This document shows, one piece after another, positions 1,406 to 58,200 of a stretch of 64,000 nt of DNA (the first letter of the stretch is position 1; every line of letters begins with the position of its first letter). Both the position numbers and the translations under genes were made by a program. The notes under the pieces are model-generated. The model worked only from the letters and a program-made list of their open reading frames with translations, did not search any database and was not told the origin of the DNA. This DNA comes from a virus. The stretch lies in IMG/VR virus record IMGVR_UViG_3300037042_003533, positions 1 through 64,000 of that record; one strand, given 5' to 3'.

Positions 1406-1434
1406 TTGACATATCTCCTATTCCATGTCATACT
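1406..1434 (+). promoter_or_regulatory. Sigma70-type promoter
   Basis: TTGACA-17bp-CATACT with extended -10 TG. Confidence 0.8.
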
Positions 1435-1442
1435 ATAACTAA

Positions 1443-1563
1443 GGAGAACTAACCAACACAGTAAGGCTGAGTACAGTTGAGAACTCAGTAAGCGGAGGTA
1501 GGGGAGTGTTAAGTGAGTTCTGGTCGCAACTCCCACTGTAAAGGTTTTGTTGGTTAGTTCTCT
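1443..1563 (+). ncRNA. Structured RNA or leader, three-way junction
   Basis: Perfect 15-bp closing stem 1444-1458/1548-1562, CAGT/ACTG helix, two internal 6-bp hairpins. Confidence 0.6.
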
Positions 1564-1590
1564 CGTTTCTATTAAAGGAGAGGATAAATA

Positions 1591-2680: not shown

Positions 2681-2861
2681 TGGAAGAAAAAGGTTTCAAC
2701 TACTACCGTGACACATCCCCGGAGGAGTTTCTTGCTGACCTGCGTGCTATCCTGGTGGACGGTGATAACATGTGTCCAGTCAGGCTGATCGAAGAAGTTA
2801 ATTACATGACAAGCCAATTCATTGAGGCGCAGATAGCAGAGGAGGGGGAGGAAAAATAAGC

Positions 2862-3926
2862 ATGGAAAGCATTACATCATTCAAAGACCTGTCCACAATC
2901 ATCATCAGCTCTAGGGGTAATGCAACCTCAGTTGACTGGAATCAGTTTGGGCTGGTCAATGTTCAGCAACAGAAAGACCTGATACTCTTTAGCTATAAGA
3001 AAGAATGTCAATTCAAGAAACCAGAAGAGTGGAACTGGTTCGAGAAGGTCAGCCGGGGTCTAGTGATGAATACTCAGGGAGAGATTGTTGCCAGACCCTT
3101 TGACAAGTTCTGGAATTATGGAGAAGTCTTCCCTGAAGGTCAGCCTGTAGAAATTACTGAGAAGGTAGATGGCAGTCTGATTCTCATCTATCCCTACGAA
3201 GAGGGAATCAGAACATCTACACGAGGCAGCTTTACCTCTGACCAGGCTTTGTGGGCCGCTGAGTACATTAAGAAGCATCTAAATCTTGAGGGACTGATTG
3301 GAAAAGGGATTACCCTGCTGTGCGAAGCCATTTACCCAGAAAATCAAATTGTGGTGGATTACAAAGGAAAAGAGGATTTAGTTCTTCTAGGGGTAAGAGA
3401 TCGAGAAGGTGGGGGAGATTGGTGGTACAGTGCTGTTAAACAGTTGGCAGATAGTTATGGGATGAGCACACCAAAATCCTATGACATTGCAGACATCGAC
3501 TCCTGGTTGGAGCGAGCTAAGACACTGGGTAGTGATTATGAGGGGTGGGTGGTTCGTTACGATAACGGAACTAGGGTTAAGGTTAAGGGGGCTCTTTATT
3601 TAGAGTTACATAAGTGGATTAACCGTCTGACCCTTAAAGTGGTTGCAAAAGCCATGGTTGACGGCACTTATGCTGAACTGGAGGAAGGCTGTCCAGCATA
3701 TCTGCTTGAAACTTTACGATCCTTGAGGTGCACAATAGAAAGACAGTATGCTGAGATTTACACAGAAATTCTAGTGACTTATATAAAAGCTCCTACCAGA
3801 GGTAGCCGGAAAGATTTTGCGATTTGGGTTAATAGTAACTATCCCCAGATGGCTAAATACCTTTTTGCGTGTCATGACAAGAAGGAACTTTTTGGGATGA
3901 TTCTGAAACAAGAGTATGGTGTTTAA
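2862..3926 (+). CDS. T4 Rnl1-like RNA ligase
   Basis: SRGLV, ARPFDKFWN, adenylation motif EKVDGSL, EGWVV and KVK motifs. Confidence 0.9.
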   Translation: MESITSFKDLSTIIISSRGNATSVDWNQFGLVNVQQQKDLILFSYKKECQFKKPEEWNWFEKVSRGLVMNTQGEIVARPFDKFWNYGEVFPEGQPVEITEKVDGSLILIYPYEEGIRTSTRGSFTSDQALWAAEYIKKHLNLEGLIGKGITLLCEAIYPENQIVVDYKGKEDLVLLGVRDREGGGDWWYSAVKQLADSYGMSTPKSYDIADIDSWLERAKTLGSDYEGWVVRYDNGTRVKVKGALYLELHKWINRLTLKVVAKAMVDGTYAELEEGCPAYLLETLRSLRCTIERQYAEIYTEILVTYIKAPTRGSRKDFAIWVNSNYPQMAKYLFACHDKKELFGMILKQEYGV

Positions 3927-3928
3927 CT

Positions 3929-4357
3929 ATGTCCCAACACTCAAAAGACCTATCTGGCCGCACCTTCAACCGGCTAACTGTGCTCTACCGTGACTACAAT
4001 CAATCACCCTCCCACACTTACTGGCTATGCCAATGTTCCTGTGGGGAAACCAAATCAGTCAGGGCCAGTCACCTGCTGTCTGGAAACACCCAATCCTGTG
4101 GCTGTCTGGCTCAGGAGCAGTTTCAGAAGAACTCCAAGCACCTTCTGGTGGATATGAAGGGGGAGGTGATGAAGGGGTGGGAGGTGGTCAGGAAGGCAAC
4201 CGGGTACGAGAGAAGGAATGTGCTGGGGTTGAAGGCTTCTGTCAGGCAGGCAGTTTGGGTGTGTAAGTGTGGGATGTGTGGGAAGGAAAGGTTTTTTGGT
4301 GGGCAGGAGCTGAGAGAGGGTAGGGTGGGGACGTGTAAGCATAAGGAGGAGATGTGA
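3929..4357 (+). CDS. Homing-endonuclease-associated Cys-repeat protein without a recognisable nuclease domain
   Basis: DLSGRTFNRLTV..WLCQCSCG..L.SG.TQSCGC module plus a degenerate second copy. Confidence 0.7.
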   Translation: MSQHSKDLSGRTFNRLTVLYRDYNQSPSHTYWLCQCSCGETKSVRASHLLSGNTQSCGCLAQEQFQKNSKHLLVDMKGEVMKGWEVVRKATGYERRNVLGLKASVRQAVWVCKCGMCGKERFFGGQELREGRVGTCKHKEEM

Positions 4358-4472
4358 TGATGACTGCGATATTGGGTATAGGGTTGTTTGTGGTAGTTGT
4401 TGTTACTTGGTTTGTGATAGGAGTTTGGATTATAAAAGGGGCTATTGAGGCTCATAGATAAGGAGAAACAAT

Positions 4473-4799
4473 ATGTGCCAGGGTTGTGTAGACGATGGAT
4501 GTCTATCTCAAGAAACATATGACAAGATTGAAGCGTTTTTAGAGAAATATCCCCAAGCTTCTTGGGGGCCAGCTCATGTGGTATTGGAAGATGATAATAC
4601 CGATGATTATAATATCAAATGGAGTTTGGGATTAGCCAAGGCAGCACTATCCCATGATTCTAATGATCTGTTTCATCCGGAAGAAGATATTATCACTATG
4701 AACAAGATGGAATGGTATGAAGATGAAGACCCGAAAGAGTTGCAAGCTACAGTGGCGTTTTTAGAGGAGTTGTTGGAAATACCAGAGAATGTGAGGTAA
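4473..4799 (+). CDS. Acidic hypothetical protein
   Basis: AAGGAG RBS, MCxxC start. Confidence 0.7.
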   Translation: MCQGCVDDGCLSQETYDKIEAFLEKYPQASWGPAHVVLEDDNTDDYNIKWSLGLAKAALSHDSNDLFHPEEDIITMNKMEWYEDEDPKELQATVAFLEELLEIPENVR

Positions 4800-4800
4800 T

Positions 4801-5106
4801 GTGAACAACTACCCAGGACAAACAGAGGCAGAGAGACTAGGTTATACTTTATACGGAAGTGCAGGTGATCATTCATCTGCCACCTATTTCAAAGATCACC
4901 TTTTCTTAACAGTTACAAAGAATGCTGATAATAAATTCAAAGGGGCTCTTTGGACTAACATTGGATTGGTAGAACTTCGTATTGCAGAGGTCAGCTTCCC
5001 TAACAGCAATTTTCACATATTCGAGCGGGATATGAAGGCTATTTCAGAGGCGGGGGAAAGGGCTTACAACAATATCCGAACAGCTAAGTTGATGAATCAG
5101 TTCTAG
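4801..5106 (+). CDS. Hypothetical protein
   Basis: GAGGT RBS, abuts upstream gene. Confidence 0.65.
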   Translation: MNNYPGQTEAERLGYTLYGSAGDHSSATYFKDHLFLTVTKNADNKFKGALWTNIGLVELRIAEVSFPNSNFHIFERDMKAISEAGERAYNNIRTAKLMNQF

Positions 5107-5108
5107 GG

Positions 5109-5137
5109 TTGACACATTCCTAACGCTGTGGTATACT
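5109..5137 (+). promoter_or_regulatory. Consensus sigma70 promoter
   Basis: TTGACA-17bp-TATACT with extended -10 TG. Confidence 0.9.
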
Positions 5138-5146
5138 ATAAGTAGA

Positions 5147-5222
5147 AGAGAGTTAGTGTAACGGTAACATCCCATGAGTCGCGCGCGATAGTGGAAAGCA
5201 GGTTCAATTCCTGCACTCTCTT
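5147..5222 (+). ncRNA. tRNA-like element 1, enlarged non-canonical anticodon arm
   Basis: 7-bp acceptor AGAGAGT/ACTCTCT, D arm GTGT-AACGGTA-ACAT, T arm GCAGG-TTCAATT-CCTGC; no CCA. Confidence 0.75.
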
Positions 5223-5268
5223 TTAGAGGCAGAGAAACTATAAGTGAGATAGCCAATCAAGACCTTAT

Positions 5269-5337
5269 GGTGTGTATAGTTCAATGGATAGAATGGCCCT
5301 GGCTGGGCTCAATACAAGTTCGAATCTTGTTGCACCT
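5269..5337 (+). ncRNA. tRNA-like element 2, shortened anticodon arm
   Basis: D arm GTTC-AATGGATA-GAAT, T arm ACAAG-TTCGAAT-CTTGT, acceptor GGTGTG/TGCACC; no CCA. Confidence 0.7.
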
Positions 5338-5478
5338 GCCTCTTTTGAAAAGGAGTTTATATGTTCCGTAGACTAATCCCCAAACATTTAGGACAAACTT
5401 TGCTGTTAATCACGATCTTCATGGTACTCTATCTTAGTACCATGGTATGTTTTGTTTGTTTTGTGATAGGAGCTTAAC

Positions 5479-5682
5479 ATGCTATCAGAACCAGTTGTCT
5501 TCATAAAGTGTGATTTCTGCTCAGTTACCGAAGAAGTTACTTTAACGGCTCTGGCTCGTGGGGCTTATGACGAGCGAAATGTACGGTCAACACTAGAAGA
5601 GTGGGGCTGGACACTTTCTGACCTGAATGAGGATATGTGCCCGGACTGCTCGTTTGAGTGCTCAATAGGAGAAAGGGTTTGA
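5479..5682 (+). CDS. Small zinc-finger protein
   Basis: CDFC..GW..CPDC; AGGAG RBS. Confidence 0.7.
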   Translation: MLSEPVVFIKCDFCSVTEEVTLTALARGAYDERNVRSTLEEWGWTLSDLNEDMCPDCSFECSIGERV

Positions 5683-5683
5683 T

Positions 5684-6565
5684 ATGATCATAGCCTTTGA
5701 TGTAGATGATGTAATAGCAGACCTTGTTCCTGTTTGGCTTGCTAGGTATAATGTAGATTATGATGATCATCTTATAGCTAATGATATAACTCAGTGGGAT
5801 ATTTTCAGGTTTGTTAAGCCTGAGTGTGGTAAAAAGATTTATGAGTATCTTACTGCTGATTTATATAATGATGTGTTACCACTTCCAGGTTCCTTAGAAG
5901 CAGTACAACATGCCCGAAAGGTTGGTAAGGTTATTTTCGTTACTTCTTGTGTTTGTCTTCATGCCGGTCGTAAGTTTACTTGGCTAAACGATCATGGATT
6001 TGAAGTTACACAAGATTGTTATGTAGAATGTTCAGATAAGAGTCTTATTGCGGCAGACATTTTGATTGATGACCGTCCGGAGAACTTAGAAACGTTCAAA
6101 GGTACGTTCAAGTATTTAATTGATAAGCCTTGGAATCATGTAATCAATGGTGGCTGGAAGCGTATGTTTGGTCTGACCGATAAGTCTTGGGGCACCGAGT
6201 TAGCAGTGTGGCAAGGTTTCTTCAAAACACCAGGGACGACTCCGGAGGACATAGCGACTAAGGCTGTTAAGTATGACACCGGTAAGCCCCGTATGGAATT
6301 ACTCTCCTTTTTGGTTCTGATGGAAGTAGCAAAAGTGATGACCAATGGAGCAGTAAAGTATGCCGATCATAACTGGAGAAAAGGTTTTAATTGGACACGA
6401 CCCATCGGAGCTGCTTTGCGACATATTTCAAAATGGTTGATGGGTGAGGATTTCGACTCGGAGTGGAATCTTCCACATCTAGCTCATGCCATTTGCTGTT
6501 TGATGTTTACACTAGAACATCAGTTGCTTGAAATGGGTATAGATGATCGGTGGAAGAAAGAGTAA
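5684..6565 (+). CDS. 5'(3')-deoxyribonucleotidase (HAD) fused to dATP/dGTP diphosphohydrolase (DUF5664-like)
   Basis: FDVDDVIAD and LIDD HAD motifs; C-terminal KYDTGKPR..GAVKY..NWRKG..ALRH..D.E..LPHLAHA. Confidence 0.85.
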   Translation: MIIAFDVDDVIADLVPVWLARYNVDYDDHLIANDITQWDIFRFVKPECGKKIYEYLTADLYNDVLPLPGSLEAVQHARKVGKVIFVTSCVCLHAGRKFTWLNDHGFEVTQDCYVECSDKSLIAADILIDDRPENLETFKGTFKYLIDKPWNHVINGGWKRMFGLTDKSWGTELAVWQGFFKTPGTTPEDIATKAVKYDTGKPRMELLSFLVLMEVAKVMTNGAVKYADHNWRKGFNWTRPIGAALRHISKWLMGEDFDSEWNLPHLAHAICCLMFTLEHQLLEMGIDDRWKKE

Positions 6566-6962
6566 ATGATGGGATACATAGACACAGGTTGTGCCAAGGT
6601 ACAATGCAGTCAATGTCATGGAGTAAGTTATAAAGATATTACCCGACATACGCCTGGTGGGTTTAAGGAGTCTATCCGATTGTGTCTAACGTGTGGGCAC
6701 GAGAAGGTATTCAGTGTTATGATTACAAGCGACATTCAGCCTCCGCTTGTGTACGTATTTGAAGTACCCAAGCCAGTTGATGCAGAGGAGTTCTGATGAA
6801 ACAGCACTGGCTAAAAGATTACATACAGCATTGTATAAAAACACAATCAGACACACTTATGTATATGAGTGAGGTTTCTAAAGATTCTTATATTTACCAA
6901 GTAAACGAGGTGAAGTTTAACTTGGTAAATATATACATTCAGATATTATTGCATGTGCAGCT

Positions 6963-12606: not shown

Positions 12607-14341
12607 TGGAAATGGTGACCTCATCTCCTCTGCTCTGGAGAGAATGGTCAACAAGTTAGAAAATATTTCTGACCAACGAACCATCCCTCCTTCTGAGTGG
12701 CTTGAGAAGTATTTCTGGATTCCTGAACCCCGTGATCCGGTTACAGATATGTTGTATCCTCCAGGGCCCATTCGTTTGGTTGAACATCAGAGAAGAATTA
12801 TAGATGAAGCTCTGTCTCGTAAGCCTAATGGCCTCTTCAAGTACACAAACATCATTTACTCAGCCCCTAAGAAATCGGGAAAGTCCACTCTGGCTTCAGG
12901 GGTTGCTCTTTACCTAACTTATCACACCCCCTATGGGAAAATCTTCTGCCTGGCAAATGATGGCAAGCAAGCAGATGACAGACTTATGGGCCCTATTCTC
13001 CAATGTATAGACTTCCATAAAGCCAACGGGCTTCTTCTAAAAGATGTAAAAACAATTCCATCCGAAGCGAAGGCAAAACTTAGTAACAAGGCAGTTATCG
13101 AGGCTATCCCCTGTGACGCTGCTGGAGAGGCTGGGTCAGAGCCGACCGGTGTTTTCCTGAGTGAAGTTCACGCCTATACTTCTCTCCCCAAGCGAAAGTT
13201 GTTCACAGAATTAACTATTCCTCCCACCAAATGGGGGAGGGCGATCAGGTGGATTGATAGCTATGCTGGCTACATGGGTGTTTCGGTTCTGTTGTGGGAA
13301 ATTTATCAAGAAGCTGTTCTGAATGCAGTTCCCCATCCCGACTTTCTTGATCTCACCAGTGAGGGCGAGCCGGTTGTGTGGATAAATGAGGGGGCTAGTA
13401 CCTTCTGCTACTGGGATCATGAGCAGAGACTAATGAGGGATGTAGAGGCTTACTACCAGCAAGAAGCCAGGATGCTTACTCCTTCTGAGTTTGAACGTAT
13501 TCATAAGAATCGCTGGGTCAGTGCTCTGGGCTCCTTTGTCCAACCGGAATGGTGGGATGCTTGCCAGGATGAGAGCATAGGGCCTTTGCTGGATAATAAA
13601 ACACCTGTTGTGATAGCAGTTGATGCGGCAGAAACTAATGACTGTGCTGCGATTGTGGCTGTAACAAGGCATCCTAAGTACCCAGAAACTGACATAGCTA
13701 TCAGGGCCTGTAAAATCTTCCGGCCTATTCCCGGCAAAAGTGTAGTGATCTTAGAAGACACTATCGGGAAGACTATTCAGGAATGGGGTAAGAAGTGGAA
13801 TATTGTTTGTATAGCCTATGATGCTTTCCAGATGGCAAAACTGGTACAGGATTATCGTCGTGGTCAGGTGACATTAGACCAGAATGATATTAAGGGCATG
13901 AATGATGAAGAAATCAATGCCTATATCAAAGAGATTCAGAGAGCTATCCAACGATGGTATTTCAGGTTCTCCCAGCAAACTACTCGGTCTATTGCGGATA
14001 AGCAGCTCTATGACATGATTGTCAATCAGCAGATTCACTGGAATCCTAACGACCGAGATAGTGACATCACTCCCCGTGGTAACGACGAAACTTTAACCAA
14101 GCATGTCAAGCAGGCGGGGGTAGATCAGACCAAGGGCCAGTACCGTATCAAGAAGCTATCCAACGATCTAAAGATCGATGCGACGGTTGCTCTTTCAATG
14201 GCAGCCGAGCGTTGTATGACGTTAATTTTAGAAAATAAAGAAAACAGCGATAATACAATAGAATCATTGTATCGAGATCAACTAATTGATTACAGCGAGT
14301 ATATAGCTCGCAAAGCAAGGGCAACTGTAAAGAATGTCTAA
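12590..14341 (+). CDS. terL: Terminase large subunit
   Basis: Walker A PKKSGKS, Walker B-like FLSEVH, nuclease IAVDAA..D, YDAFQ, KIDATVALSMA. Confidence 0.92.
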   Translation: MMPATSGNGDLISSALERMVNKLENISDQRTIPPSEWLEKYFWIPEPRDPVTDMLYPPGPIRLVEHQRRIIDEALSRKPNGLFKYTNIIYSAPKKSGKSTLASGVALYLTYHTPYGKIFCLANDGKQADDRLMGPILQCIDFHKANGLLLKDVKTIPSEAKAKLSNKAVIEAIPCDAAGEAGSEPTGVFLSEVHAYTSLPKRKLFTELTIPPTKWGRAIRWIDSYAGYMGVSVLLWEIYQEAVLNAVPHPDFLDLTSEGEPVVWINEGASTFCYWDHEQRLMRDVEAYYQQEARMLTPSEFERIHKNRWVSALGSFVQPEWWDACQDESIGPLLDNKTPVVIAVDAAETNDCAAIVAVTRHPKYPETDIAIRACKIFRPIPGKSVVILEDTIGKTIQEWGKKWNIVCIAYDAFQMAKLVQDYRRGQVTLDQNDIKGMNDEEINAYIKEIQRAIQRWYFRFSQQTTRSIADKQLYDMIVNQQIHWNPNDRDSDITPRGNDETLTKHVKQAGVDQTKGQYRIKKLSNDLKIDATVALSMAAERCMTLILENKENSDNTIESLYRDQLIDYSEYIARKARATVKNV

Positions 14342-57180: not shown

Positions 57181-58131
57181 TCACTCATTATCTTCTCCAA
57201 AATCATCCCACATCTCAGCCATCTCACCCAAATCCCCCCTCTTGCCGATGTATTTCTCGGTGACGACAGAGGAACTGTGACCCAAATCATCTCTCACCGT
57301 CTCAATGCTCGCTCCCCCTAACCTGCTGACCAGAGCATGACTACGCCGCAGGTCGTGAGGAGCAACACCAAATCCACACAGGGTTGAGTATTCTGTTACA
57401 ATACGGTAAATGGTCTGAGTCGTAATCTTGCCTCTCTTATTCCCATGGCGGTCATAAGACTGAATAATCCGTGCATCCTTGTCCCATGGCTCTATACAGT
57501 ATTCCACCAACATTTTATACACCCAAGCAGGCAGATTGACTGTTCTGATCCGCCCGTGTTTGCCTCGGATGTCAGCAATAACGAACAACTCTCCATCTCT
57601 GCGTATCTGGCCCCAAGTCAGGTTGCAAACTTCCGACCGTCGCAAGCCACAGCCCACCAGCAACCCTAGCACTGCTCGATCCCGCAGGCCAAGCGCTGTA
57701 GTAGGGTCTGGAGCAAAACACAGGATTTCTAGTTGACTTTTAGATAGCCGCGTCCCATAAACATCCCCATGCTGGGGGATATTGCGGATGTTTTTGATGG
57801 CTATGCTGACTTCATGGTTGAAGGGCCAGCCGGTCTTGCCAATACCTAACGTAGCAGCAACTTCGAACAGCCGCCGAATGGAGGACAGTTTCTTGTTGAC
57901 AGTTGCCGGTTTGAGCTTCATATCCTCAGAGAGATACTTCCGATAGCCGGTAACAGCCGCGATGGGGTTATTAGTTCCTGATCGTAGCCACCACTGAAGA
58001 AACTCATCCACTGAAGGGCCATAGGAAAGACCAGTCAAGGCACTCACACTGTTAAGTAGAGTTTCCTTGACTGGCTCCCAGAAGGTTAAAAAGTTCTGTT
58101 CTTGTTCTGATTCGTAAACGGTGATGCTCAT
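57181..58131 (-). CDS. Tyrosine recombinase/integrase (XerD-like)
   Basis: T.N..LS.IR, RDRA.L..L..CGLRRSE, GK, HDLRRS, LGHSS...T..Y. Confidence 0.95.
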   Translation of the reverse strand: MSITVYESEQEQNFLTFWEPVKETLLNSVSALTGLSYGPSVDEFLQWWLRSGTNNPIAAVTGYRKYLSEDMKLKPATVNKKLSSIRRLFEVAATLGIGKTGWPFNHEVSIAIKNIRNIPQHGDVYGTRLSKSQLEILCFAPDPTTALGLRDRAVLGLLVGCGLRRSEVCNLTWGQIRRDGELFVIADIRGKHGRIRTVNLPAWVYKMLVEYCIEPWDKDARIIQSYDRHGNKRGKITTQTIYRIVTEYSTLCGFGVAPHDLRRSHALVSRLGGASIETVRDDLGHSSSVVTEKYIGKRGDLGEMAEMWDDFGEDNE

Positions 58132-58171: not shown

Positions 58172-58200
58172 AGTATAACATACAAGGGCCAGCTTGTCAA
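58172..58200 (-). promoter_or_regulatory. Consensus promoter of the recombinase, overlapping a 14-bp inverted repeat
   Basis: TTGACA-17bp-TATACT; CCTTGTATGTTATA 58140-58153 and TATAACATACAAGG 58174-58187. Confidence 0.85.

What the first reader, a model, noticed from the sequence alone, without database searches (positions are those of the whole stretch)
5109..5343. Two tRNA mimics with intact D/T elbows but non-decoding anticodon arms
Seen: directly after a perfect promoter are two cloverleafs. In element 1 the D-to-T distance is 27 nt (canonical ~22-23) with CCAT/GTGG, an internal loop and a TCG-CGCG-CGA cap instead of a 7-nt loop. In element 2 it is 19 nt with GGCCC-TGGCT-GGGCT (5-nt loop, or a 4-bp stem with a GGC triplet). 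Neither encodes CCA. Element 2 is additionally enclosed by AGAGGCAG (5225-5232)/CTGCCTCT (5336-5343). Damage is concentrated in the anticodon arm while D and T arms are intact, which argues against random decay. Inference: decoys for tRNA-targeting toxins or tRNA sensors, or RNase P/Z processing signals.
Basis: partly seen in the sequence, partly recalled or inferred. Interest (0 to 1): 0.75.

Follow-up and report, generated by a model that had tools for sequence, protein, structure and literature searches.

The report
Phage tRNA look-alikes that cannot decode
An uncultured sediment phage transcribes two tRNA-shaped RNAs, built on ordinary phage glutamine- and arginine-tRNA bodies, whose anticodon arms are closed hairpins; they cannot read codons, and it is undecided whether they are kept for another job or are decaying tRNA genes.

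Summary
Both cloverleafs pass Rfam's tRNA threshold (39 and 34 bits). They follow a near-consensus promoter and have intact acceptor, D and T arms. The D-to-T spacing is 27 and 19 nt, against a canonical 22-23.

Element 1 sits on a phage tRNA-Gln-type body and element 2 on a tRNA-Arg-type body. Of 45 IMG/VR tRNAs sharing those bodies, 44 are canonical. The genome holds a third aberrant cloverleaf (6-nt loop, outside the window) and no canonical tRNA. In 3.5 Mb of comparison DNA about 7% of tRNA-shaped units are aberrant.

The only reachable relative (ligase 51% identical) has a normal tRNA-Leu(UAG) at the same promoter slot. Closer strains in a metagenome keep element 2 but replace element 1.

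Elements 2 and 3 are each one indel from a canonical arm. Element 1 is not.

My best reading is tRNA-derived, non-decoding RNAs that host tRNA-maturation enzymes cut from an operon leader. The decoy idea has no direct support. Plain decay remains a strong rival.

This scan has reported similar non-decoding phage tRNA look-alikes on other DNA. Interest is moderate to low.

The parts
2862..3926 (+). T4 Rnl1-type RNA ligase gene, about 1.2 kb upstream. It is context only: it is linked to the promoter-tRNA module in a relative.
   Evidence: Pfam RNA_lig_T4_1 at 1.6e-20 and PHROG 562 at 4e-53. The KxDG motif residues K101, D103 and G104 are invariant among 12 homologues. In L167 the order ligase, promoter, tRNA is kept although the module sits elsewhere in the genome.
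5109..5137 (+). Sigma-70-type promoter TTGACA-17(TG)-TATACT, one of about 9 copies of a phage promoter family followed by nnAAnTAG. The predicted start is near A5144.
5147..5222 (+). Element 1: a cloverleaf on a phage tRNA-Gln-type body. It has a 7/7 acceptor stem, U8, a D arm with G18G19 and a T arm with loop UUCAAUU.
   Evidence: Rfam tRNA, 39 bits. The MFE structure is a cloverleaf. Body typing against IMG/VR: 7 of 8 hits are canonical tRNA-Gln(UUG).
5143..5225 (+). Extended closing helix of element 1. The leader (5143-5146) pairs with the trailer (5222-5225), which lengthens the acceptor to 10-11 bp and sequesters the predicted 5' end.
   Evidence: The inverted repeat is 11 nt and 91% complementary. 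The fold of 5144-5226 gives z = -3.28, against -2.13 for the bare cloverleaf.
5172..5194 (+). Arm that replaces the anticodon arm in element 1. It is 23 nt long: CCAU/GUGG, an internal loop, a 4-bp stem and a CGCG tetraloop. It contains the 10-nt palindrome at 5179-5188.
   Evidence: No single 4-5-nt deletion restores a 5-bp stem with a 7-nt loop and U33.
5223..5269 (+). 47-nt spacer with a predicted hairpin. The hairpin loop carries UAGCCA (5250-5255), which is complementary to the loop of element 2.
   Evidence: MFE folds. The complementarity is read from the sequence, was noticed post hoc, and was not tested for significance.
5270..5338 (+). Element 2: a cloverleaf on a phage tRNA-Arg-type body. 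The acceptor stem has a U2.C71 mismatch and two G.U pairs. The discriminator is G, followed by CC-U.
   Evidence: Rfam tRNA, 34 bits. ARAGORN calls it tRNA-Ala(GGC). All 37 IMG/VR tRNAs with this body have a 26-nt gap and canonical arms, nearly all with Arg anticodons; element 2 has 23 nt.
5295..5309 (+). Shrunken arm of element 2, GGCCC-UGGCU-GGGCU. It reads either as a 5-nt loop on a 4-5-bp stem or as a 7-nt loop CUGGCUG on a 3-4-bp stem.
   Evidence: A single 3-4-nt insertion would restore a canonical arm.
5225..5232 (+). 5' arm of the 8-bp inverted repeat that encloses the spacer and element 2.
   Evidence: Present but at chance level.
5336..5343 (+). 3' arm of the same inverted repeat. 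It overlaps the last two acceptor positions of element 2.
5361..5477 (+). First gene of the operon: a 38-aa hydrophobic peptide with RBS AAGGAG at 5350-5355. It contains a 10-bp hairpin followed by a U-rich run (5419-5445).
   Evidence: An RNA-library contig of a relative covers 5349-5540. The two differences listed inside the ORF, at 5435 and 5441, are synonymous third-codon positions, and the one that lies in the hairpin stem (5441) keeps its pair as G.U (with my reading of the frame).

Best explanation
The two elements are remodelled copies of ordinary phage tRNA genes. Element 1 has a tRNA-Gln-type body and element 2 a tRNA-Arg-type body. They occupy a promoter-plus-tRNA slot that holds a working tRNA in a relative.

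They are transcribed from a strong phage-family promoter as the first 200 nt of an operon transcript.

They keep a 7-bp acceptor stem stacked on a canonical T arm, and an intact D/T elbow. Host RNase P, the 3'-end trimming enzyme and the CCA-adding enzyme should therefore treat them as pre-tRNAs. That would cut the leader at defined points, release two tRNA-shaped small RNAs and give the downstream mRNA a fixed 5' end.

Their anticodon arms are closed hairpins of the wrong length, so they cannot pair with a codon on the ribosome. Element 2 also lacks the alanine identity pair.

Shown: the tRNA ancestry, the promoter context and the aberrant arm geometry. Inferred: transcription, processing, and that the module is kept for this processing or tRNA-shape role rather than merely not yet deleted.
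For: Both elements pass Rfam's tRNA threshold, with the anticodon arm skipped.

Body typing: 7 of 8 IMG/VR matches to the D/T body of element 1 are canonical tRNA-Gln(UUG). All 37 matches to the body of element 2 have canonical arm lengths, nearly all with Arg anticodons.

The spacing of 27 and 19 nt compares with 22-23 nt in 373 of 537 tRNA-shaped units in 3.48 Mb of comparison DNA.

The slot is conserved. L167 has -10, then AGAAGTAG, then a canonical tRNA-Leu(UAG) of 53.7 bits. The window has -10, then ATAAGTAG, then element 1 one nucleotide later. In both, the slot follows the RNA ligase gene.

The genome has 3 tRNA-shaped units. All are aberrant and none is canonical, against about 7% aberrant elsewhere.

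No single deletion can turn element 1's arm back into a canonical one. Its closing helix extends 3-4 bp into the leader, with z = -3.28.

Other promoters of the same family also drive long structured leaders, with z = -3.47 and -4.38.

A metagenome strain keeps 5223-5392 at about 93% identity.

RNase P and the CCA-adding enzyme recognise the T-arm/acceptor stack and the elbow, not the anticodon (PMC4919913).
Against: There is no direct evidence that these RNAs are made or processed.

Only one syntenic relative could be read, and it has a normal tRNA.

Element 1 is replaced beyond position 5154 in one strain. The 198 nt upstream of the small ORF are unalignable in another strain. The region therefore turns over quickly.

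Element 2 folds no better than shuffled sequence (z = -0.23) and has a weak acceptor stem.

Leader-trailer pairing at element 1 could hinder RNase P.

Detection bias explains part of the intact-elbow, broken-arm pattern.
Confidence: 0.45

Rival explanations
1. These are decaying tRNA genes. The lineage no longer needs its own tRNAs, indels have inactivated all three genes, and they persist only because they sit inside promoter-leader modules and have not yet been deleted. They have no selected function.
For: Element 2 is one 3-4-nt indel from a canonical arm, and the third element is one 1-nt indel away. Element 2 also has an acceptor mismatch and a fold z of -0.23. A relative has a canonical tRNA at the slot. 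Element 1 is replaced, and the region is unalignable, in closer strains. Rfam scores of 34-39 bits are well below the 44-75 bits of working phage tRNAs. Selecting for detectable cloverleafs biases towards lesions in the anticodon arm.
Against: All conserved elbow and tertiary positions are intact in both elements. Element 1 needs several events to reach a canonical arm, and has gained a self-complementary cap and a longer closing helix. Three aberrant units out of three, against a background of about 7%, needs a lineage-wide cause. Phage genomes purge dead DNA quickly, yet a strain about 7% diverged across this stretch still has element 2.
Confidence: 0.3
2. These are tRNA-shape decoys. The abundant, non-decoding cloverleafs soak up a host factor that grips tRNA by the acceptor end or elbow, for example an acceptor-end nucleotidyltransferase or nuclease toxin, or a tRNA sensor of a defence system. 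They would work alongside the neighbouring RNA ligase.
For: The promoter is strong and the elbow and acceptor are intact. The closed arms would keep the RNAs off the ribosome and out of reach of anticodon-loop nucleases. Ligase and tRNA(-like) genes stay linked despite genome rearrangement. Rapid cassette turnover fits an arms-race locus. Phage tRNAs are known to counter tRNA-targeting defences (PMC10264068; bioRxiv 10.1101/2023.03.15.532788, abstract seen).
Against: No candidate target is known. The known cases use decoding-competent tRNAs that keep 7-nt loops. A decoy for an anticodon nuclease should keep the loop. No polynucleotide kinase/phosphatase partner for the ligase was detected. Some relatives lack the ligase gene altogether.
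Confidence: 0.13
3. Element 1 is a 5'-end shield. It is not cut off. Its 10-11-bp closing helix begins at the first transcribed nucleotide and protects the operon mRNA from 5'-end-dependent decay, as do the other structured leaders of this phage.
For: The closing helix starts at the predicted +1. The leader of the promoter at 1406 also begins with a 16-bp closing helix 2 nt from its start, with z = -3.47. That 5'-terminal stem-loops stabilise bacterial mRNAs is established knowledge, recalled and not checked here.
Against: An intact T-arm/acceptor/elbow is what RNase P recognises, so cleavage is the default expectation (PMC4919913). The three extra pairs are weak (A-U, G.U, A-U). The start site is predicted, not mapped.
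Confidence: 0.07
4. Element 2 is a working, unusually compact tRNA, read as anticodon GGC in a 7-nt loop CUGGCUG on a short stem. It is charged and used in translation.
For: ARAGORN calls it tRNA-Ala(GGC) at default settings. U33 is present in that reading. CC follows the discriminator.
Against: The alanine identity pair G3.U70 is absent: the pair is G3-C70 and the discriminator is G73. That reading drops nucleotide 26, uses a 3-bp D stem and has a U.C mismatch atop the anticodon stem. C32 and G38 can pair and close the loop to 5 nt. Position 37 is U. All 37 tRNAs with the same body are 3 nt longer.
Confidence: 0.05

Closest known systems
Canonical phage tRNA genes, Rfam RF00005 (tRNA-Gln(UUG) and tRNA-Arg types in IMG/VR phages; tRNA-Leu(UAG) in relative L167)
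   Same: The acceptor, D and T arms and all elbow nucleotides match. The D-arm and T-arm sequences are nearly identical to phage tRNA-Gln (element 1) and tRNA-Arg (element 2). The promoter-proximal placement is the same as the tRNA-Leu of L167.
   Different: The anticodon arm is 5 nt too long and capped by a tetraloop in element 1, and 3-4 nt too short in element 2. There is no usable anticodon loop. Model scores are low, at 34-39 bits.
Phage T4 RNAC and RNAD ('species 1 and 2' stable RNAs of the T4 tRNA cluster). This rests on my own knowledge and on earlier scan notes; no paper was opened.
   Same: They are phage-encoded, partly tRNA-like stable RNAs. They are co-transcribed and processed with tRNAs, do not decode, and their function is still unknown.
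   Different: The T4 RNAs are longer (about 120-140 nt) and sit inside a cluster of working tRNAs. Here the units are tRNA-sized, the genome has no working tRNA, and no sequence relationship was tested.
Phage tRNAs that evade tRNA-targeting defences through anticodon-loop changes (PMC10264068; T5 tRNA-Tyr against Retron-Eco7, bioRxiv 10.1101/2023.03.15.532788)
   Same: These are phage tRNA genes whose anticodon loops differ from the host's, set in a host-phage conflict. The association with tRNA repair by RNA ligase is classical, as in T4.
   Different: Those tRNAs keep a 7-nt loop and still decode, and they replace cleaved host tRNAs. The elements here cannot decode.
mascRNA/menRNA tRNA mimics of MALAT1 and MEN-beta (PMC11693755). 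The gammaherpesvirus-68 tRNA-like RNAs are a further example, from my own knowledge.
   Same: These are tRNA-shaped modules inside a longer transcript. RNase P recognises them and so defines transcript ends. They are not aminoacylated, and mascRNA has an abnormal anticodon arm.
   Different: They are eukaryotic or animal-virus systems and sit at the 3' end of, or upstream of, other RNAs. There is no evolutionary link.
Bacterial YrlA (Y-RNA-like) tRNA mimics, and the tRNA-like domain of tmRNA
   Same: They have an intact T arm and elbow without a decoding anticodon loop.
   Different: YrlA is circularly permuted relative to tRNA and binds Rsr. tmRNA lacks a D stem and carries an ORF. Rfam and ARAGORN's tmRNA search gave no such match.

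Membership tests
tRNA (Rfam RF00005) | Covariance-model score at or above the gathering score of 29 bits | tested here: met
   39.0 bits (5147-5222) and 34.0 bits (5270-5338). Working phage tRNAs in the comparison loci score 44-75 bits.
tRNA (Rfam RF00005) | 7-bp acceptor stem, U8, 4-bp D stem with G18G19, and 5-bp T stem with a UUCRANY loop | tested here: met
   Element 1 has 7/7 acceptor pairs. Element 2 has 6/7, with a U2.C71 mismatch and two G.U pairs.
tRNA (Rfam RF00005) | 5-bp anticodon stem closed by a 7-nt loop with U33 and purine 37, giving 22-23 nt between the D and T stems (class I) | tested here: not met
   The spacing is 27 nt and 19 nt. 373 of 537 tRNA-shaped units in 3.48 Mb have 22-23 nt. 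Body-matched tRNAs are canonical in 7 of 8 and 37 of 37 cases. RNAfold closes the arms with 4- and 5-nt loops.
tRNA-Ala (ARAGORN's label for element 2) | G3.U70 wobble pair and A73, the AlaRS identity set (established knowledge) | tested here: not met
   Element 2 has G3-C70 and G73.
tRNA-Gln (body type of element 1) | A YUG anticodon in a 7-nt loop, which GlnRS or GluRS recognition requires | tested here: not met
   The arm is a 23-nt closed hairpin with a CGCG cap. No single deletion restores a canonical loop.
tmRNA (tRNA-like domain) | Acceptor and T arm with G3.U70, no anticodon arm, linked to a tag ORF and pseudoknots | tested here: not met
   ARAGORN's tmRNA search of the whole genome found none. 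There is no Rfam tmRNA match.
Phage attP carrying part of a host tRNA gene | A 3' tRNA segment identical to a host tRNA gene and lying next to the integrase gene | tested here: inconclusive
   A tyrosine recombinase gene exists but lies 52 kb away, at 57181-58131. Full cloverleafs that include the 5' halves are present. There was no near-identical match in 602 sampled Chloroflexota and Bacteroidota genomes, but the host is unknown.
T4 RNAC/RNAD-type stable phage RNAs | Stable, RNase P-processed, non-aminoacylated RNA that accumulates during infection | not testable with these tools
   This needs RNA from infected cells. No sequence model of these RNAs was available to me.
Decoy or inhibitor of a tRNA-targeting defence | Binds or titrates a defined host nuclease, transferase or sensor and rescues infection | not testable with these tools
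   The host, the defence system and the binding partner are all unidentified.

The most novel reading that the evidence does not exclude
The phage has converted all three of its tRNA genes into closed-arm, tRNA-shaped RNAs. These are made in bulk from its strongest promoters and act as decoys for a host factor that grips tRNA by the elbow or acceptor end. They would form one counter-defence module together with the linked Rnl1 RNA ligase.
Probability: 0.12. Interest if true: 0.75.

Novelty: new member of a known kind. Interest (0 to 1): 0.36.

Why it matters
Phage tRNA genes are usually explained by codon supply or, more recently, by replacement of host tRNAs destroyed by defence nucleases. 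A phage whose only tRNA-shaped genes cannot decode fits neither account.

If such RNAs are maintained by selection, they point to a use of the tRNA shape itself. That use could be as a processing handle that punctuates phage transcripts, or as a competitor for tRNA-binding host proteins.

This locus alone cannot settle the question, because relatives are scarce and the region turns over quickly. It does add a clean, promoter-defined example, with typed ancestry, to a recurring class that annotation pipelines label 'pseudo' or miss. Default ARAGORN missed two of the three units here.

Tried and rejected
**Relatives that could not be reached**
The best relatives by RNA ligase are P0002 (59%), P0004 (56%), P0007 (52%) and P0010 (51%), on 49-84-kb contigs. 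They could not be fetched.
- INPHARED phages gave no DNA match and no ligase above 36% identity among the listed hits.
- IMG/VR scans with the NT5C/MazZ protein, the ligase, the terminase, the ligase alignment, an exact element-1 motif and the promoter-family pattern found no kin.
- The five IMG/VR records tried lack the terminase.
- The GTDB genome scan gave only ligases of 42% identity or less, mostly in Chloroflexota.
- BLAST of the elements against all fetched loci gave only generic D-arm or T-arm words.

**Expression**
- The one RNA library that holds relatives (X2) has no contig lying on 5147-5340 at 80% likeness or more. These are contigs, and a gap proves nothing, so this says nothing about expression.
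- The table of differences was truncated, so the substitutions inside element 2 in strain X4 could not be read.

**Features that turned out to be at chance level**
- The enclosing 8-bp helix.
- The 11-nt direct repeat at 4824 and 5225, by my estimate of expected repeats.

**Ideas tested and dropped**
- (CG)n slippage from a canonical loop: removing 6 nt still leaves G at position 33 and a G.A mismatch (and by eye).
- An attP origin: no host match in 602 genomes, and the integrase is far away.
- A tRNA-repair pair: no Pnkp-type kinase or phosphatase was detected.
- A 2-aminoadenine genome: no PurZ-like gene.

**Earlier notes**
- Earlier notes of this scan gave no look-alike of this sequence.

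Full report
**What the DNA is.** The window is the first 64 kb of an 83.7-kb IMG/VR virus record judged 97% complete. The record was assembled from a sediment metagenome. It is a tailed phage with a large terminase, a tape-measure protein and a family-A DNA polymerase. It also has a tyrosine recombinase.

Upstream of the finding lie a T4 Rnl1-type RNA ligase (2862-3926), an HNH endonuclease and two small ORFs. Downstream lie a 38-aa hydrophobic ORF (5361-5477), a 67-aa zinc-ribbon-like ORF and an NT5C/MazZ-like fusion protein.

**Checking the observation.** Rfam's tRNA model matches 5147-5222 at 39.0 bits and 5270-5338 at 34.0 bits; the threshold is 29. In both alignments the model jumps over the anticodon arm.

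Default ARAGORN reports only element 2, as tRNA-Ala(GGC). With relaxed settings it forces element 1 into a poor tRNA-Asp.

RNAfold returns cloverleafs for both elements. Element 1's substitute arm folds as CCAU/GUGG, an internal loop, a 4-bp stem and a CGCG tetraloop. Element 2's arm folds as GGCCC-UGGCU-GGGCU.

The promoter is TTGACA-17-TATACT with an extended -10 TG, which is 11 of 12 rather than perfect.

The 8-bp arms at 5225-5232 and 5336-5343 are real. Such a pair occurs in 15% of shuffles and 20% of windows of this genome, so it carries no weight.

**Ancestry of the elements.** I scanned IMG/VR for each element's D-arm and T-arm sequence with a free gap between them.
- The body shared by element 1 and the third element gave 8 hits. 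Seven are canonical tRNA-Gln(UUG) and one is another aberrant unit.
- Element 2's body gave 37 hits. All have exactly 26 nt in the gap and canonical arms, nearly all with Arg anticodons. Element 2 has 23 nt.

The elements are therefore ordinary phage tRNA bodies with altered anticodon arms.

**How unusual this is.** A simple scan for T arm, acceptor and D arm found 537 tRNA-shaped units in 3.48 Mb of fetched phage and metagenome loci. Of these, 373 have a D-to-T spacing of 22-23 nt. Most of the rest are class II. About 7% are not called canonical by ARAGORN.

The same scan finds exactly three units in this genome, and all three are aberrant. They are elements 1 and 2, plus a third at genome 68284-68353 on the minus strand. 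The third has a 6-nt loop and sits in a 560-nt non-coding block behind another promoter of the same family. There is no canonical tRNA. The lineage-wide pattern is beyond chance. It fits either general loss of decoding or general conversion to something else.

**Distance from working tRNAs.** I tried every single contiguous indel.
- Element 2 becomes canonical in shape with one 3-4-nt insertion.
- The third element does so with one 1-nt insertion.
- Element 1 cannot be rescued by any single deletion.

Element 1's arm contains a 10-nt palindrome that holds the only GCGCGC site in 83.7 kb.

Element 2 lacks G3.U70 and A73, so it is not a tRNA-Ala whatever its loop does.

**Comparative evidence.** This is thin.

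The one syntenic fragment I could read is L167. Its ligase is 51% identical and its neighbouring genes are 55-60% identical. After its ligase gene it has a -10 box, then AGAAGTAG, then immediately a canonical 83-nt tRNA-Leu(UAG) of 53.7 bits. The window has TATACT, then ATAAGTAG, then element 1 one nucleotide later.

The ligase-promoter-tRNA module sits at a different place in that genome. The module therefore travels as a unit.

Laying public contigs on 2800-6600 gave these results:
- In one DNA run, a strain covers 5223-5392, which includes element 2, with 11 differences and one gap.
- In the same run, another contig follows the window to 5154 and then diverges. Element 1 is replaced there.
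- In an RNA-library run, a contig matches 5349-5540 at 97% but its 198 nt upstream are unalignable.
- Contigs in two runs join 2845 to 3929, so some strains lack the ligase gene.

The slot is a fast-changing cassette.

**Transcript context.** The genome has about nine copies of one promoter family, TTGACA-17(TG)-TATACT-nnAAnTAG. The predicted start for this copy is A5144.

Element 1's acceptor helix extends through the leader, pairing 5143-5153 with 5215-5225, to give 10-11 bp. With those flanks the fold z-score improves from -2.13 to -3.28.

Two other family promoters drive strongly structured leaders, at 1441-1570 (z = -3.47) and at genome 69911-70050 (z = -4.38). Structured promoter-proximal RNAs are therefore a habit of this phage, and two of the four long leaders contain tRNA-derived modules.

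**Mechanism.** Bacterial RNase P and the CCA-adding enzyme measure from the tRNA elbow along the T-arm/acceptor stack and ignore the anticodon (PMC4919913). Both elements offer exactly that surface.

The default expectation is therefore as follows. They are cut out of the leader like pre-tRNAs. CCA is added. They accumulate as tRNA-shaped RNAs that cannot decode. The downstream mRNA starts near 5339. All of this is inferred, not shown.

Whether selection maintains the module for this punctuation, for a decoy role or for nothing cannot be decided here. My odds are:
- 0.45 for processed, non-decoding modules that are retained.
- 0.30 for plain decay.
- 0.13 for a decoy.
- 0.07 for a 5'-end shield.
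- 0.05 for element 2 being a working tRNA.

**Comparison with known systems.** The nearest things in print are:
- Phage T4's RNAC and RNAD stable RNAs (my own knowledge).
- tRNA mimics such as mascRNA, which serve as RNase P handles (PMC11693755).
- Phage tRNAs with altered, but still decoding, anticodon loops that escape host nucleases (PMC10264068).

Earlier notes of this scan describe similar non-decoding tRNA look-alikes in other phages. Those notes are unchecked by me. My own census also turned up further examples in unrelated phage contigs, such as L284, L304, L077 and L294. This is therefore a new member of a recurring, poorly characterised kind, not a new kind.

**Verdict.** The non-decoding nature is well supported. 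The decoy interpretation is unsupported. Decay is not excluded. Interest is moderate to low, at 0.36.

Noticed in passing
L004:4284-4353 (minus strand; genome 68284-68353, outside the window): A third tRNA-shaped unit on the same tRNA-Gln-type body. It has a 6-nt loop (AUAUGU), an A.A mismatch in the T stem and a G3.U70 pair in the acceptor stem. It lies inside a non-coding block of about 560 nt behind a TTGACA-17(TG)-TATTCT promoter. Rfam did not report it at E<=1; relaxed ARAGORN did.
   Followed up: partly
window 1406-1570; L004:5875-6109 (genome 69875-70109): Two further promoters of the same family drive long non-coding leaders that fold far better than shuffles (z = -3.47 and -4.38). The first starts with a 16-bp closing helix 2 nt from the beginning of the folded stretch.
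   Followed up: partly
window 2846-3934; L240:1119-2187: The RNA ligase gene is an indel among strains. Contigs in two public runs join 2845/2846 to 3929/3935 with 7-12 other letters between. In L240 a 74%-identical ligase gene is interrupted by about 1.06 kb. An HNH endonuclease gene abuts the ligase in the window. This suggests homing-type mobility.
   Followed up: no
window 5684-6565: A fusion of an NT5C-type 5'-deoxynucleotidase with a MazZ-like dATP/dGTP diphosphohydrolase domain (PF18909). No PurZ-like adenylosuccinate synthase is in the genome, so this is a nucleotide-pool editing enzyme without the usual 2-aminoadenine partner.
   Followed up: partly
window 5179-5188: The 10-nt palindrome in element 1's arm holds the only GCGCGC in the 83.7-kb genome, against roughly nine expected from base composition by my own estimate. 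Being self-complementary, it could also pair two element-1 molecules.
   Followed up: no
window 5250-5255 and 5300-5305: UAGCCA, in the predicted loop of the spacer hairpin, is complementary to UGGCUG in element 2's loop. A loop-loop contact in cis is possible. This was noticed post hoc and not tested for significance.
   Followed up: no
window 5419-5465: A 10-bp hairpin followed by a U-rich run lies inside the 38-aa ORF and looks like an intrinsic terminator or attenuator. In an RNA-library contig of a relative, the two listed differences are synonymous, and one keeps the stem as G.U.
   Followed up: partly
window 57181-58131 (minus strand): A tyrosine recombinase/integrase gene (Pfam Phage_integrase, 72.9 bits) behind a family promoter at 58200. 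The phage may be temperate. No attP was looked for next to it.
   Followed up: no
L284 (IMGVR_UViG_3300045988_042591), 6157-6379 and 13564-13632: An unrelated 104-kb phage carries several aberrant tRNA-shaped units: 8-nt loops, a 6-nt loop on the same Gln-type body, and one with a 69-nt insert between the D and T arms. L077, L294, L304 and L189 hold other examples.
   Followed up: no
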